Below, one piece after another: positions 19,179-25,722 of a stretch of 64,000 nt of DNA. The stretch's first letter is position 1. Every line of letters begins with the position of its first letter. The position numbers and the translations under genes are program-made. The notes under the pieces were generated by a model that was not told the DNA's origin, ran no database searches, and was given only the letters and a program-made list of their open reading frames with translations. Source of the DNA: Moniliella sp. 'wahieum' (Eukaryota); the NCBI GenBank assembly GCA_003971905.1, contig RSEE01000011.1, positions 682,001 through 746,000 on the forward strand, given 5' to 3'.

Positions 19179-19743
19179 GCGGGGGGGGGGGGCGAACAGA
19201 CGGGGGGGGGGGGGGGTAGAGATGCGGCGGCAAAAGACGGTGGTGTTTATAGTACTCGCAACACAGCCGAGCACACCCTGTCAGTCTCTGCGGTGAGGGG
19301 GCCAGTGCGGCGGTGCGGCGGCAGGACTTGGCCCTGGCAGGGCTCGGCATGGATCGGTGTTTATACGATAAAGCAGCGCGGGGGGTTGCGGGCGGCAGGG
19401 GGCCGCAGCGGGCTTGGACGACGGACAGCACAGTGGCAGCACGCCAGGTCTACGGCCCCAGGGTGCTCAACCCACATTGACGCGTCCTGGCGCCCCGCCT
19501 GCGGTTGGCCGTGGTGTGTGCGTTTGGTACGGACGAGACGCAGGGACGATGGATGATGGATGCTCGATGCTTCATACCTTCATTCTGCCGTGCGCTCCCC
19601 GATGCCACGCCTCCGACTCCGACTAGACCCCAGCCGCCCGTCCCTGGCCCAGGCCCAGGCACCGTGAGCTCAGATGGCGATGGGAGAGACCCCGTTACCC
19701 ATTGCCCGTTGCTTTAACCGCGTTCGCGTTTTAAATTTTGCCA

Positions 19744-19956
19744 TGTTGACATCCGTCCTAGGACCGCGCGGACCCTGAGTCACGTGAGTCAGCTTTCATT
19801 CCTTCCGAGCTCGCACCAGTCTTCTGGACGAGTCAGTCGCAGAAGCTTCTTAGTCCAATACGACGTTCAGTGCTCACATTCTGTGGTAGTAGCGAGAGCT
19901 TCTTAGTCCAATACGACGTTCAGTGCTCACATTCTGTGGTAGTAGCGAGGCCGACA
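19744..19956 (+). repeat. 5' LTR (213 bp, includes 53-bp tandem duplication)
   Basis: By eye identical to the 3' LTR except for a second copy of 19844-19896 at 19897-19949. Confidence 0.95.
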
Positions 19957-20010
19957 GAGTTACATCCTTATCTGCTCATCCCTGAGCTGGCCAAAACTAC
20001 ACCCACAACC

Positions 20011-23000
20011 ATGGGCGCCAACGCTAACACCGATCTCTCGGTCAGCGACACCACAATGGTGAACAAGCGCGATTACTGGACACCAACCGGTCGCGATCCG
20101 CCACCGATTGGCACCGACAACGAGGAACTCATGATGCTTTGCGCCGAAGCGCACCTGTGGTTCAAGAAGACGAACGACATCGATGTCGTTAAAGAGAAGA
20201 TCAACAGAGCTATACACGACAGAGCCGAGTGGCTTGGATGGAAGGACGAACCTACGTCTATCACGACAAACTGGGTTCGACGGGCTACGAATTTTGTGGT
20301 GCAAAACATCCACCAAATGGAAACTCAACCCAACGCAACTTTGGGGGCACCTACAGGCGCAGCCTCGCGACCCGAGTACGACCTTACAGATCACTACCGA
20401 GTCTCCCACCAAGAATATCAAGTGGCCTGATCTGAACAAAGACCCGTCGCCTACAGCGCTTGGGAAGACGAATTTCTCTTCGCGATAACAGATGCCCACC
20501 CCCACGCAAGCGACGTCGTCCAGAATGGTCGCAGCTCCCGCTACTTCACCGAGGACCTCGACAGACGCTTGCACAACCTTCTTAGGGAAGCCATGCCGTC
20601 AACCCTCTTCCGGACGATCCGCACCCACCACGAAATATCATGCACCCAGGACACGCTGAACATGCTGCGTCAGCGGTATGGATATACGCCTACCGCAAAC
20701 AGAGGGCCTCTACTCATCGCTACTTTTCGGCCCGACCAAGGAAACCGATCGGGTCGAGACTACCTCGACTACATGGAAGAGATCAGTGCAAGCCTGACGC
20801 GAGCGGGCATCCCACTTACGGAAGAGCAGGAACGCACTGGGATCCTACTCGGCTTACGCGACTGAGCATTCGCCCAGCGTGAAGAGCGCTCGAGTCTAGA
20901 CAAGTTACGGCAGGCCGTGATGGACATACCAGCCGCCACGTATCCCGGTGGAGAAAGGAGAGAAACGGAGGCAAGCCGGTCAACGGAGGAACGCCTTGGA
21001 CTCGACCCGACAGCGGGGGACGACCCACCAGCGGGGGAAAAAAAACTCCAGCGGGGGCAAAGCCGGCGACGACAACCTCGCGGACACAAAGACCAAGGGG
21101 CAAGACCGCACCGCACCAACCAACCCTGGCGCAGCGCGACGTCTAATAACCTGTTGTCCCTCCGCGCAACCCAGGCCGAGCCAACGCTCACGTCGCTCAG
21201 AGAGCGAGCTCTCCCGAGTCTGAGTGATTGACGTTGATGGGGCACAGCTGACTACTAGGAACTCGGGGGCGAAATGCGAATCATCCGGGCATTATATGAC
21301 AGTGGGGCATTCCCATCCATTTGGAAAGACAAATCCGTCTTCAATCCATGACCCCTTGCGACGACGAGATAGAGGTTGCTAACGGGACACATGTAAAGGC
21401 GGAAGGACGAGGCACGGCCACAATCCGTATCCGATGCTTAGGAGGACACCAAATGGAGATAAAACTCCCAACAGCCTATACATGCCCCGTTTCAGCCGAA
21501 ATCTCGTCAGTGTAGCACACCTGTCGAACACCGGAATCGCATCATACTTCGCCCCACACCAGAAGGGTATCTGGCTTGGTAACCAGGATCCACCCTACGA
21601 AAAGTAACCGGCAGTGACTATCAATTCACGATCTTACACAACCCGCGAACGCCACCCACACCCCTGCGGGCCATGGCGACCAAACGATCAAACCGGCCGA
21701 CCCACCCTCAACCCCAAACTCCCTCGCAGCATCCCTGCCCTGGACCACGTCTCTAAAGCCCACAAACGCTGGAACCACGCAGCCATCGACCTCCTCCCCT
21801 GGCTTACACGATCGGAAACGCAGGCCTCCGCGTCACAGCCAAGCATATCCCTCTGTCGTTCAGAGTGGGATTGCCCAACATGCGCGGTGGCACTAGCGAC
21901 AGCATCGCCCCATCCGAGCCGGGACCGCCTCCGATCCAAAAGACCTTTCGAGGTCCTCCACGTCGACGTAGTAGACCTCCCCCGGGTAACCGGCATGGGG
22001 CACGGATACGCCCTCGTCGCCGTTGATGACTTCACGCGGTACGTCTTCACCACAGCGATCCCGACAAAGGGCGCTGCAACGAAGGAACTGCGGAACCTCA
22101 TATTGCGGGAGCAACGCTACGGCCCGGACAGACTGCTGCGGACTTTGCGCACGGACAACGCCCCCGAATTGACAAGCGCACTGCAACCTTTTCTGGACGA
22201 GCAAGGCATCACGTCAGAACGGACAATCCCGGGGCAGAGTGCTAGCAACGGTGTGGCTGAGCGTGCCATCCGAACATAACGACTCGTGCAAGGCAGTTGC
22301 TCTTGGGTACAGGTCTTCCGACGTCGGACTGGTGGGAACACAGCCTCCACGCTGCGTGCTTCACCCAAAACCAAATGCCACTCAAAACATCCGGGGAAGA
22401 CAACAAATCGCGATTTGAGCGATACAAAGGCACGCATACTCGTTACCGATGCAACCCTTTGGCCGCGTTGCATACCTCCATCTGCCCGAGTCACGCCGCG
22501 AGCACAAGCTCAGCGCGCGGGCAGAGGAAGGATGCTGGTAGGATACCACCATCAGCGCGGATCAAAGGGATGGCTCTTCGCCACATACCAACCATCCTGG
22601 GTACCTTCACTACCGCTGGTCGAAACCGTACAAATGGGGCAACGCCATCTACCCCATCTCCCACCCCGACCACTTCCACACCCGACATCTCCAAATCACC
22701 TCAAATTAAAATCGACAGTGAAAAAGACGCTAACCCTACTCCGCCAGCCGCGGCAGCACCCATGCCCCGAACCGCCGCCACACCCCAGACACCCGCTCCC
22801 ACCACCACCCCCCCTCCGCGCCGCTACCCCCTCCGCCAGCGCACCACCCGCACCTCCCTCGACCTGCACACACTCCCAATCGCTGACGACCCCACCGACA
22901 CGACCTACCATGCTCGTGCTGCAGCCGCCACGCCCCACTGCGCCGCACCAGAGATCGGCATCGCCCGCCCCCTACCTGACACATCCGCCCCCCCGTTTGC

Positions 23001-24690
23001 CGACACAGTTCAACCTCCCGAATACGCCGCCATGACTGCTCTCAGCGCACCCATCCACCCGGACACGGTTCAGCTCACCAAGGATGGCGTACCCCTCGCT
23101 CCCAAGACGCTCAAGGGTCTCGAGACTCACCCCTCCTTTGCCATGGTCAAGCAGGCTATGGCCGACGAGGTGGCCACACTCGCGCGATACGGCACCTACG
23201 AGGCTACGTACCCACCACCGGGTGCACAAATCCTCATAGGACTATGGCGCATCACCACAAAGACGGACGCCGAGGGCCGGTTCCTGCGCCACCGCGCGCG
23301 CTTTGTCGCGGGCGGACACCAACAATCGGCCGAGACTTGGGGCCAGACGTTCGCACCATCGGTGCGCACACCTGCCATCCTGACCCTCGTCGTGCTGGCC
23401 GAGAAGTATAAGTTTGGCCTCTTCTCGGCGGACGTCAATGCAGCGTACCTGAACGCCCCCCTCGAAGAAGCAGTCTACATCCGCCCACCCCCCTACTTCC
23501 CCGAAGCGGGTGGTCGCGTGTGGCGTCTCAAGAAGAGTCTATACGGGCTACATCAGAGCGGAGCAAACTGGGCACGATACATCCGGAACCTGCTGCGTGA
23601 CAAGCTCGGCTTCACGCAAAGCTTGACCGAGCCCTGCTTGTTCGTGCGCGCTGCACCACCGGGTGAGCAGATCCTCCTGGCGGTCCACACCGACGATCTG
23701 CTCCTCGCATGCAAGTCACACCAAAAGTACGAGGAGTTTATGGCCGAGATAAACACACACATTGATGTTCGTGGTAACGGTCCCCTTCACTACCACCTGG
23801 GATGCCAATACGATCGGATCGGTGGGGAGCTGTACCTGAGCCAACCAAAGTTCATCGAGGAAGTGGTGGCAAAGCACCACATCAAAGCCCCGTGGATCCG
23901 GACTCTCCCACATCCCGTACGGATGATACCGCCCCGTGCCGACCCTGAACCCCCATCCCTCCCAGCCTTGCGCAAGGCATATCAGGGGAAGATCGGATCG
24001 GGACTGTGGGCTGCACGAATGGGCCGGCCTGACTCCCTCTTCGCTATCACGGCCCTCAGCAGAGCCGCTGCCGACCCATCGCAGCAGCATCATCAAGCAG
24101 TCGATGACTTCCTTCGCTACCTGTACCATACTCGAGGAAAGGGCCTGAGGTTGACCCCAACATCAGATGCACCGGCCATTGCGCTGTATACAGATTCCGA
24201 CTTGGCGGGAGATCCCATCCAGGCACGCTCCACATCTGGATGCCTACTGATGGTGTACGGTGTGCCGGTGTCGTGGCGATCCATTCTTCAGCCGAAGAGC
24301 GTTACCAGTACCGCCGCCGCCGAATATACGGCAGGATATGATGGACTGGTTGACGCCAACTATGTCAAGAACATCATGATCGAGCTTGGGGCCATCGGCG
24401 AGGGTACACCCATTCATTGGTATTGCGACAATAAGTCTGTCGTCGATCTCGCCCACAAATTTGGCAGCACCGGCAAGCTCCGAGAGCTGAAGATCCGGTA
24501 CCACAATGTACGGCAACACGTGGACTCGGGCGAGGCCATACTTGTACACATCCCCGGCGAAAGGAACCCAGCGGACGTCCTCACCAAGCCTCTCGGCCGT
24601 CCCGCCCTGACAAGCCATCTTGCTCAACTCCGCGTCGAGGAGATGGATCCAGTCCACATGACTGGGCCCTCCGGTCAGCGGGGGTGTTGA
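20011..24690 (+). CDS. Gag-Pol polyprotein of the copia element (several frameshifts)
   Basis: Protease 'LYDSGA' (~21295). Integrase HHCC 'HKRWNH...CPTC' and DDE 'HVDVV...VDDF...DNAPE...NGVAER'. RT 'DVNAAYLNA', 'LKKSLYGLHQSG', 'VHTDDLL'. RNase H 'YTDSD','AEY','YCDN','ADVLTKPL'. The stop codon lies inside the 3' LTR. Confidence 0.93.
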
Positions 24691-24844
24691 CATCCGTCCT
24701 AGGACCGCGCGGACCCTGAGTCACGTGAGTCAGCTTTCATTCCTTCCGAGCTCGCACCAGTCTTCTGGACGAGTCAGTCGCAGAAGCTTCTTAGTCCAAT
24801 ACGACGTTCAGTGCTCACATTCTGTGGTAGTAGCGAGGCCGACA
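24685..24844 (+). repeat. 3' LTR (160 bp)
   Basis: TGTTGACATCC...GGCCGACA, matching the 5' LTR. Confidence 0.95.
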
Positions 24845-25651
24845 TGCCACAACCCCCGACCGGGGGTACTGCACCAGCGCTGTTGCGGCTGGGCCTTGCG
24901 CCTTGCGCCAGGACACTTACGCGCTAAGCGTAAAAACCGAGGTTACTTGCCCTTTGTCACATGTCACCGATCAGCGCTCACACGTCATGACATTTTAGTA
25001 CTTAGCACCCGCACGTGCTCTCTCCTGCGCGCCGGCTGCCCTGACTATGACTGGACGCAGCTTTGAACTCTTGACGCGTGACGCGTGACGCTTGCCGCTG
25101 CGTTTAGAGCGTCCCAGGTCGGCAACCAGACAGTGCCCCCGCCTGTCCGTGCGTACATACCCCGCGTACCCAATCATAATCACCCTTTGGAATGCGCATC
25201 GATTCGATGGATCGATGCAGGATGGCCGAGGGATGCAGCATGGCGCCTCACCCGTCGATCGGCCCGATTGCATTCTCTCGCAGGTATAGTATTTTCGGTT
25301 GCCACACCAACCTCACATACCGTCGCCCTGTCACACACCAATACCTCTGCTACACGTACGCGGCGTTAAGCGATACGATACGTTTTTTTTTGCTTCCTCG
25401 TCCGCCTTACGCCTTCTCACCCCAGTCAGCTTATAGTACGCCTAGTCAGAGCTAGCAAGCCCTAATAAGCGCTAACGTTAACCGGACTAAGCGCCAAGCG
25501 CTAACCACTGATTAGCTTCCTCCCCGTCCAGCGGCAAGCATGCATGATGAGCTTGAGCAGTTGGCATTAAGCCCTGGTAGCCACAAGCGAGAGATACGCA
25601 CTAGGCAGCCATAGATACCCTTGGCCTGGTGCAAAAAAGAGATAAAACAAA

Positions 25652-25722
25652 TGGACGAACAGGAATTGAACCCCGGACCTCATGCATGCTAAGCAAGCGC
25701 TCTACCCCTGAGCTATCCGCCC
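25652..25722 (-). tRNA. tRNA-Ala (anticodon AGC)
   Basis: Reverse complement GGGCGGATAGCTCAGGGGTAGAGCGCTTGCTTAGCATGCATGAGGTCCGGGGTTCAATTCCTGTTCGTCCA forms a cloverleaf with the G3:U70 Ala identity pair and loop TTAGCAT. A T6 Pol III terminator lies at 25633-25638 on the minus strand. Confidence 0.9.

What the first reader, a model, noticed from the sequence alone, without database searches (positions are those of the whole stretch)
19957..19977. Copia element with a non-canonical primer-binding site: possible priming by an unusual tRNA fragment
Seen: the 5' LTR ends ...CCGACA and is followed directly by GAGTTACATCCTT. This is neither the TGG... site for a tRNA CCA end nor the GGTTATG... site used by copia/Ty5-type elements primed by the tRNA-iMet half molecule (established). 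The element looks recently transposed (perfect TSD, matching LTRs), so the site presumably worked. Inference (a): the 13-mer pairs, with three G:U wobbles, to GGGGATGTAGCTC, the 5' end of many eukaryotic tRNA-Ala, implying a 5' tRNA fragment cut in the D arm as primer. Inference (b): GAGTTACA pairs with a UGU-AA-CUC anticodon arm of tRNA-Thr(UGU), analogous to half-tRNA priming. The neighbouring tRNA-Ala(AGC) gene matches only about 6 nt. I found no complement of this site within the LTR, so Tf1-type self-priming is not supported.
Basis: partly seen in the sequence, partly recalled or inferred. Interest (0 to 1): 0.7.

Follow-up and report, generated by a model that had tools for sequence, protein, structure and literature searches.

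The report
Copia retrotransposon with half-tRNA primer site
A copia-type jumping gene in a smut-related fungus most likely starts copying itself from the front half of a cut tRNA, probably tyrosine tRNA, which is a known trick used here with a tRNA not reported for it.

Summary
A Ty1/copia element (19744-24844, TSD TGCCA) has GAGTTACATCCTT directly after its 5' LTR. This is neither a CCA-end site nor the initiator-tRNA half site.

Read as tRNA, the site fits an anticodon arm in only 1 of 8 registers. That register ends at nt 40, the copia/Ty5 cut position, and gives U33, A37, two stem pairs and anticodon GUA (Tyr). Only 1.4% of window 13-mers pass these four tests.

New here: the next 20 leader bases (19973-19992) are antisense to a tRNA D arm. 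They form 20 pairs with the window's own tRNA-Ala, used as a stand-in (dG -32.8). None of 1000 shuffles and 3 of 14,156 genomic 26-mers do as well. The spacing fits tRNA nt 9-40.

Best reading (0.5): priming by the 5' half of tRNA-Tyr with an extended site. Self-priming is rejected.

Limits: no host tRNA-Tyr or second family copy could be seen, nt 32 would be A and nt 38 C, and this copy's genes are broken.

The scan read two other copia elements on other DNA of this genome the same way. Half-tRNA priming with tRNA-Ile and tRNA-Arg is already published, so this is a new member of a known kind.

The parts
19739..19743 (+). Target-site duplication, left copy (TGCCA)
   Evidence: Identical to 24845-24849
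19744..19956 (+). 5' LTR, 213 bp, TGTTGACA...GGCCGACA
   Evidence: Direct repeat with 24685-24844. Equals the 3' LTR once one 53-bp unit is removed
19844..19949 (+). Perfect 2 x 53-bp tandem duplication, present only in the 5' LTR
   Evidence: Units 19844-19896 and 19897-19949 are identical
19957..19969 (+). Core primer-binding site GAGTTACATCCTT. It reads as the complement of tRNA nt 28-40 with anticodon GUA
   Evidence: It abuts the LTR. Only the register ending at nt 40 gives U33, R37 and the 31-39 and 30-40 pairs. Priming from nt 40 in Hemivirus elements is stated in passages of PMC1181622
19973..19992 (+). Second pairing block, antisense to a tRNA D arm: nt 21-25 with 19973-19977, nt 8-19 with 19978-19989, and a possible nt 2-4 with 19990-19992
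   Evidence: RNAduplex with the window's tRNA-Ala(AGC) nt 1-26 gives dG -32.8 and 20 pairs, 17 of them Watson-Crick. 0 of 1000 shuffles and 3 of 14,156 genomic 26-mers are as good. A local alignment score this high occurs in 109 of 12,790 windows
20011..21228 (+). gag-like frame from the first ATG, interrupted by TGA at 20428 and 20863 and ended by TGA at 21229. No Pfam match
21289..21604 (+). Protease-like region, split over frames 3 and 2
   Evidence: tblastn of P0003 residues 7-73 matches 21289-21488.
21608..22276 (+). Integrase core (rve), frame 2, with further frame changes
   Evidence: Pfam PF00665, E 8.9e-11. Contigs of run X1 carry one extra base at 21684, 21736 and 21818, and one more in 22121-22312, which accounts for the frame changes
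22261..24690 (+). Open frame of 809 codons holding the integrase C-terminus, RT (RVT_2, about 23212-23886) and RNase H. Its last codon and its stop lie inside the 3' LTR
   Evidence: Pfam PF07727, E 4.6e-37. 70% identity to P0002, which ends with the same residues
24676..24684 (+). Polypurine-like tract (GCGGGGG run) abutting the 3' LTR
   Evidence: Sequence read directly
24685..24844 (+). 3' LTR, 160 bp
24845..24849 (+). Target-site duplication, right copy (TGCCA)
25652..25722 (-). Host tRNA-Ala(AGC) gene, 807 bp from the element. It is not part of the element. It served here as the only available stand-in for a host tRNA D arm
   Evidence: ARAGORN and Rfam RF00005 at 49 bits

Best explanation
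The element is a Ty1/copia retrotransposon that primes minus-strand DNA synthesis in the copia/Ty5 (Hemivirus) manner. The primer is the 5' half of a host tRNA cut in the anticodon stem, and DNA synthesis starts from the 3'-OH of nt 40. The tRNA is not initiator tRNA-Met. The 13 bases after the LTR pair with nt 28-40 of a tRNA whose anticodon reads GUA, which means tRNA-Tyr. Because nt 37-40 pair as one continuous stretch, the tRNA would be the spliced form.

The same half-tRNA can also pair through its D arm (nt 8-25) with leader bases 19973-19989. This gives an extended, two-block primer site that covers about nt 8-40 of the tRNA.

Shown here: the anatomy of the element, the tRNA-arm shape of the site in one register only, and the D-arm complement with its spacing. 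Inferred: the identity of the tRNA, the cut at nt 40, and that this site was used when the copy inserted.
For: 1. The site abuts the LTR, so the primer's 3' end must pair at 19957. Established retroelement logic says that U5 ends where the primer begins.
2. Of 8 registers tried, only the one ending at nt 40 gives U33, purine 37, and pairs 31-39 and 30-40. It reads anticodon GUA. 1765 of 127,974 window 13-mers (1.4%) pass these four tests.
3. Nt 40 is the published priming position of half-tRNA elements (passages of PMC1181622).
4. Leader 19973-19992 forms 20 pairs (17 Watson-Crick) with nt 2-4, 8-19 and 21-25 of the window's own tRNA-Ala, dG -32.8. 0 of 1000 shuffles and 3 of 14,156 genomic 26-mers are as good. 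In a separate alignment test, 109 of 12,790 windows score as high.
5. From the A9-like base to the site's end is 32 nt, the length of tRNA nt 9-40.
6. Half-tRNA priming with other tRNAs is documented. Half tRNA-Ile is the dominant site type in 92% of 260 Bianca elements (PMC6317226 passages and supplement 3). [quoted passage not shown]
7. The family was recently alive. The LTRs are identical apart from one duplication and the TSD is perfect. Contigs of another sample lack this copy's frame breaks.
Against: - No host tRNA-Tyr could be seen. No genome is held, the window has one tRNA, and the 63 fetched loci have none.
- A perfect match would need A at nt 32 and C at nt 38. Intron-bearing tRNAs use C32 or U32 for the anticodon-intron pair, and all studied eukaryotic tRNA-Tyr genes have an intron (passages of PMC10275265). 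So at least one mismatch, or a bulged nt 32, is likely. A mismatch at nt 38 would sit only three bases from the priming end.
- The D-arm evidence uses tRNA-Ala as a stand-in and was noticed after the fact.
- Between the two blocks the lengths do not fit exactly. There are 3 template bases against 2 tRNA bases, and one tRNA base is bulged in the D loop.
- Infernal found no tRNA-like match on the antisense strand of 19957-20020.
- No second copy of the family covers the site, so its conservation is unknown.
- This copy's genes are broken, and the assembly may carry one-base errors.
Confidence: 0.5

Rival explanations
1. Half-tRNA priming is correct, but the tRNA is not Tyr or the site has drifted. 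Under this reading the 13-mer is a mutated or mis-assembled version of the family's true site in a defective copy, so its letters do not report the primer exactly.
For: The copy has three in-frame TGA codons and several frame changes. Contigs of run X1 differ from the window by four one-base insertions at two-base runs. Positions 32 and 38 are atypical for an intron-bearing tRNA.
Against: The two LTRs agree at all 160 positions. The RT-RNase H frame is open over 809 codons. One-base losses of the kind seen (CC to C, GG to G) cannot turn a standard loop complement into this site without also needing substitutions. That last point is my own reasoning from the contexts.
Confidence: 0.15
2. One reading: the primer is a 13-nt 5' fragment of a tRNA-Ala, cut in the D arm, pairing with three G:U wobbles.
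For: The last six bases of the predicted primer resemble the common U8-A9-G10-C11-U12-C13 motif, allowing one wobble. The window's tRNA-Ala pairs over about 6-9 bases (dG -9.8).
Against: The D-arm complement at 19973-19989 lies on the wrong side for a primer whose nt 1 pairs at 19969. The visible tRNA-Ala(AGC) has a different acceptor 5' strand. I know of no retroelement primed this way (recalled), and none appeared in the passages I read. Three wobbles should be erased when the site is recopied from the primer, which is established retroviral logic.
Confidence: 0.05
3. One reading: the anticodon arm of tRNA-Thr(UGU) is the primer.
For: In the register ending at nt 41, pairs 31-39 and 30-40 form and nt 37 is A.
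Against: The same register puts A at position 33, which is U in elongator tRNAs, puts G at 32, and mismatches 29-41. It also ends at nt 41, not at the documented nt 40.
Confidence: 0.03
4. The primer is some other cellular RNA, or the mechanism is unknown. The tRNA-antisense leader would then be a fossil, for example of an old read-through copy of a primer, with no present role.
For: The primer was not seen. The two blocks do not fit a single tRNA without bulges. Infernal sees no tRNA-like match.
Against: The combination of tRNA-arm shape, the known register and the correct spacing to a D-arm complement is hard to get by chance.
Confidence: 0.15
5. Tf1-type self-priming by the 5' end of the element's own transcript.
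For: None found.
Against: The best duplex between the 5' LTR and the site is -8.8 kcal/mol. 438 of 500 shuffled sites do as well or better.
Confidence: 0.02

Closest known systems
Drosophila copia and yeast Ty5 (genus Hemivirus; also Osser and 1731)
   Same: These are Ty1/copia elements. The primer site abuts the LTR, pairs with the anticodon stem-loop, and DNA synthesis starts from nt 40 of a half-tRNA (passages of PMC1181622; PMC5371799).
   Different: Those elements use initiator tRNA-Met. Here the anticodon position reads GUA (Tyr). This element also has a long second block complementary to the D arm. Its phylogenetic position relative to those elements was not tested.
Bianca lineage of plant Ty1/copia elements (half tRNA-Ile)
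   Same: Half-tRNA priming with a tRNA other than initiator tRNA-Met. It is the dominant site type in 92% of 260 elements (PMC6317226 passages and supplement 3).
   Different: The host kingdom differs (plants) and the tRNA differs (Ile, with inosine). No relationship of the proteins was shown here.
Candida albicans Tca2 (gamma LTR) and related families
   Same: These are fungal copia-type elements whose primer site matches an internal region of a non-initiator tRNA, Arg(UCU). In some families the match is 'extensive' (passages of the review PMC4139406).
   Different: The tRNA differs and the host is an ascomycete. The primary papers were not held, so I could not compare registers.
Ty1 and Ty3 bipartite primer sites
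   Same: Extra template segments pair with other arms of the primer tRNA (passages of PMC5371799).
   Different: Those elements use the full tRNA from its CCA end. In Ty3 the second segment lies at the far end of the RNA.

Membership tests
Ty1/copia (Pseudoviridae) LTR retrotransposon | LTRs with TG...CA ends and a 5-bp target-site duplication | tested here: met
   The LTRs run TGTTGACA...GGCCGACA, and TGCCA flanks both sides.
Ty1/copia (Pseudoviridae) LTR retrotransposon | Integrase lies upstream of RT, and the RT is of the RVT_2 type | tested here: met
   rve at 21608-22276 precedes RVT_2 at about 23212-23886.
Hemivirus-type half-tRNA priming | The site abuts the 5' LTR and is not complementary to a CCA end | tested here: met
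   GAGTTACATCCTT starts at 19957, and there is no TGG.
Hemivirus-type half-tRNA priming | The site is complementary to an anticodon stem-loop, with the primer's 3' end at nt 40 | tested here: inconclusive
   The shape tests pass in that register only (U33, R37 and two stem pairs), and the D-arm spacing fits. However, no host tRNA with anticodon GUA could be seen, and nt 32 would be A.
Hemivirus-type half-tRNA priming | The primer is initiator tRNA-Met | tested here: not met
   The anticodon position reads GUA, not CAU. Half tRNA-Ile and internal tRNA-Arg sites show that this feature is not universal.
Hemivirus-type half-tRNA priming | A cleaved tRNA is found joined to minus-strand strong-stop DNA | not testable with these tools
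   This needs cDNA or small-RNA data. No RNA run holding the element was listed.
Genus Hemivirus by phylogeny | The RT groups with copia, Ty5 and Osser | not tested
   No reference sequences were fetched. PMC1181622 states that primer type does not follow the RT tree.
Tf1-type self-priming | The transcript's 5' end is complementary to the site | tested here: not met
   Best duplex is -8.8 kcal/mol, and 438 of 500 shuffles do as well or better.

The most novel reading that the evidence does not exclude
The leader 19957-19992 may be a fossil cDNA copy of nt 8-40 of the primer itself. It would have been laid down when plus-strand synthesis read far into an unblocked half-tRNA. The positions where it departs from a standard tRNA are the D loop, around nt 26, nt 32 and nt 38. 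These would then mark modified bases or, for the three bases after nt 37, the start of the tRNA-Tyr intron. In that case the element would be primed from an unspliced or partly processed pre-tRNA-Tyr, not from the mature tRNA.
Probability: 0.07. Interest if true: 0.65.

Novelty: new member of a known kind. Interest (0 to 1): 0.35.

Why it matters
If confirmed, tRNA-Tyr joins initiator tRNA-Met, tRNA-Ile and tRNA-Arg(UCU) as a source of half-tRNA primers. It would also show this priming mode in a basidiomycete (Ustilaginomycotina) copia lineage, with an unusually long second contact to the D arm.

That long contact matters for annotation. Tools that look only for CCA-end or initiator-tRNA half sites would report 'no PBS' for such elements.

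Because every studied eukaryotic tRNA-Tyr gene has an intron, the site could also report whether the primer is taken before or after splicing.

The gain is modest, because the mechanism itself is known.

Tried and rejected
Searches that could not deliver the host tRNAs or a second family copy:
- Whole genome: none is held, so the host tRNA set could not be scanned.
- Sequencing runs: one search listed three runs of one food-metagenome study. No RNA holder was listed.
- Laying those runs: four contigs matched parts of the element (21611-21849, 22121-22312, 23999-24308, 24317-24779). None covered 19753-20586, so conservation of the site could not be checked.
- Related loci: viral contigs gave 0 relatives. 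Genome contigs gave 0 relatives. Metagenome contigs gave 63 loci, all at 44% identity or less in their best segment (38% or less in the 56 best-supported rows).
- In those 63 loci, self-alignment gave six direct-repeat pairs. The clearest LTR element, held in duplicate as L027 and L028, carries an ordinary TGGTAT... site. None of the 63 loci holds a tRNA.
- The closest proteins are P0002 (70% identity) and P0003 (49%). They come from contigs whose DNA cannot be fetched.

Other tests that gave nothing:
- Infernal on 19957-20020 found no tRNA-like match.
- The reverse complement of the site occurs nowhere else in the window with 1 mismatch or fewer.
- A full-text search for the site's letters found only unrelated primers.
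- Searches for half tRNA-Tyr priming found nothing relevant, and a search for Ustilago copia primer sites found nothing relevant.
- Papers not held: PMC537179, PMC1369817, PMC1383729, PMC179655 and PMC60234.
- Overall leader-to-LTR similarity is not significant: 202 of 1000 shuffles reach the same score.

Rejected readings: self-priming, tRNA-Thr(UGU), and the idea that tRNA-Ala(AGC) itself is the primer.

Full report
**What is there**

The window holds one Ty1/copia element at 19744-24844.
- The 5' LTR (19744-19956) and the 3' LTR (24685-24844) both run TGTTGACA...GGCCGACA. TGCCA flanks both sides.
- Integrase core (PF00665) precedes an RVT_2 reverse transcriptase (PF07727), which is the copia domain order.
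- No other copy and no solo LTR lies in the 64 kb.
- A host gene in the window has its best named relatives in Tilletiaria, Tilletia, Sympodiomycopsis, Ceraceosorus and similar genera. The host is therefore a member of the Ustilaginomycotina.

**The observation**

Three details need correction.
- The 5' LTR is 53 bp longer than the 3' LTR, because of a perfect tandem duplication (19844-19896 = 19897-19949). Without one unit the two LTRs are identical over 160 bp.
- The gag frame carries TGA at 20428, 20863 and 21229, and the protease-integrase region changes frame several times. The 809 codons from the integrase C-terminus through RT and RNase H are open.
- Contigs of a food-metagenome run match parts of the element at about 99% identity. 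They carry one extra base at 21684, 21736 and 21818, and one more within 22121-22312. Each sits at a two-base run. By coordinates, the three located ones account for the window's frame changes from 1 to 3 to 2 to 1 seen. So a copy with an unbroken frame across that region exists elsewhere. The window's breaks are either real lesions of this copy or assembly errors.

**Reading the site**

U5 ends where the primer begins, so the primer's 3' end must pair at 19957. I read the reverse complement as tRNA in eight registers, with the 3' end at nt 37 to 44.
- Only the register ending at nt 40 gives U at 33, a purine at 37, and base pairs 31-39 and 30-40. Its anticodon is GUA (Tyr).
- 1765 of 127,974 window 13-mers (1.4%) pass these four tests.
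- Nt 40 is the position from which half-tRNA elements start DNA synthesis (passages of PMC1181622).
- Weak points of the Tyr reading: nt 32 would be A and nt 38 would be C.
- Passages of PMC10275265 state that all studied eukaryotic tRNA-Tyr genes have an intron, and that intron-bearing tRNAs pair C32 or U32 with the intron. A pyrimidine at 32 is therefore expected.
- An alternative alignment takes AAGGA as the whole 5' strand of the stem (nt 27-31) and leaves nt 32 unpaired. Both visible stem pairs then become Watson-Crick, but nt 38 remains unmatched if it is A. That nt 38 is usually A is recalled, not checked here.

**A second block**

The leader beyond the site is antisense to a tRNA D arm. 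I used the only host tRNA available, tRNA-Ala(AGC) at 25652-25722, as a stand-in.
- Its nt 1-26 form 20 pairs (17 Watson-Crick) with 19973-19992: nt 21-25 with 19973-19977, nt 8-19 with 19978-19989, and nt 2-4 with 19990-19992. The duplex energy is -32.8 kcal/mol.
- None of 1000 shuffles of the leader is as good. Only 3 of 14,156 genomic 26-mers are as good.
- A separate local-alignment test scores this high in 109 of 12,790 windows, some of which overlap the tRNA gene itself.
- From the A9-like base to the end of the site is 32 nt, the length of tRNA nt 9-40.
- tRNA-Ala itself does not fit the 13-nt site (dG -9.8). The stand-in therefore only shows that the partner has a common D arm.
- The fit is imperfect. 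One tRNA base is bulged in the D loop, and 3 template bases face 2 tRNA bases between the blocks. Infernal reports no tRNA-like match on that strand.
The test is therefore post hoc.

**What this does to the hypotheses**

- A D-arm complement placed 3' of the site in the template makes sense only if the primer extends 5' of the paired 13 bases by about 30 nt. That means a 5' half-tRNA.
- Self-priming is rejected. The best LTR x site duplex is -8.8 kcal/mol, and 438 of 500 shuffles match or beat it.
- The most likely mechanism is therefore as follows. A host tRNA with anticodon GUA is cut after nt 40. Its nt 28-40 anneal at 19957-19969 and its D arm anneals at 19973-19989. RT then extends into U5-R.
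- The anatomy is shown. The tRNA's identity and the cut are inferred.

**What could not be done**

- No genome is held, so the host tRNA-Tyr is unseen.
- No read or contig covers the site in another copy.
- The closest relatives, P0002 (70% identity) and P0003 (49%), are known as proteins only.
- Scans of viral, metagenome and prokaryote-genome contigs gave no family member.

**Comparison with what is known**

- Half-tRNA priming is established for copia, Ty5, Osser and 1731, all with initiator tRNA-Met.
- It is the dominant site type in the plant Bianca lineage, with tRNA-Ile, in 92% of 260 elements.
- I found no report of tRNA-Tyr in this role in the held library.
- The scan had already read two other copia elements on other pieces of this genome as primed by a tRNA-Tyr half (notes e1-7642328 and e1-7642163). 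I reached the same register before opening those notes. They are not independent evidence.

**Verdict**

This is a real primer site of a known, uncommon type, with a probable new tRNA partner and a long second contact. Confidence in the tRNA-Tyr half reading is 0.5. Confidence in half-tRNA priming of any kind is about 0.65. I rate it a new member of a known kind, of moderate interest.

Noticed in passing
window 19844-19949: A perfect 2 x 53-bp tandem duplication near the U5 end of the 5' LTR is absent from the 3' LTR. It could be slippage after insertion, a reverse-transcription error or an assembly artefact.
   Followed up: partly
window 21611-22312: Contigs of a food-metagenome run match the element at about 99% identity. 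They carry one extra base at 21684, 21736 and 21818, and one more in 22121-22312, each at a two-base run. The three located ones account for this copy's frame changes, so the breaks may be assembly errors.
   Followed up: partly
window 20428, 20863, 21229: All three in-frame stops of the gag frame are TGA. I did not test whether any is a programmed gag-pol stop. Earlier notes describe gag-stop-pol junctions in other copia families of this genome.
   Followed up: no
window 19776-19791 (and the same place in the 3' LTR): U3 carries TGAGTCA twice, and the two copies flank and overlap CACGTG. Their resemblance to AP-1/Gcn4-type and E-box sites is recalled and was not tested.
   Followed up: no
window 19958-19967 versus 19745-19754: The start of the primer site (GTT-ACATCC) resembles the start of U3 (GTTGACATCC). 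102 of 5000 shuffles and 303 of 18,280 genomic 20-mers score as high, so this may be chance.
   Followed up: yes
window 24676-24690: The pol frame runs through the polypurine tract, and its last codon and TGA stop lie inside the 3' LTR. The 70%-identical protein P0002 ends with the same residues.
   Followed up: partly
window 25652-25722: A tRNA-Ala(AGC) gene on the minus strand lies 807 bp from the element's 3' end. The element sits on the tRNA gene's downstream side, so this does not look like upstream-of-tRNA targeting.
   Followed up: no
window 19181-19216: A G-rich low-complexity stretch attracts many short metagenome contigs with variable lengths. This looks like a simple-repeat artefact of laying contigs.
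   Followed up: no
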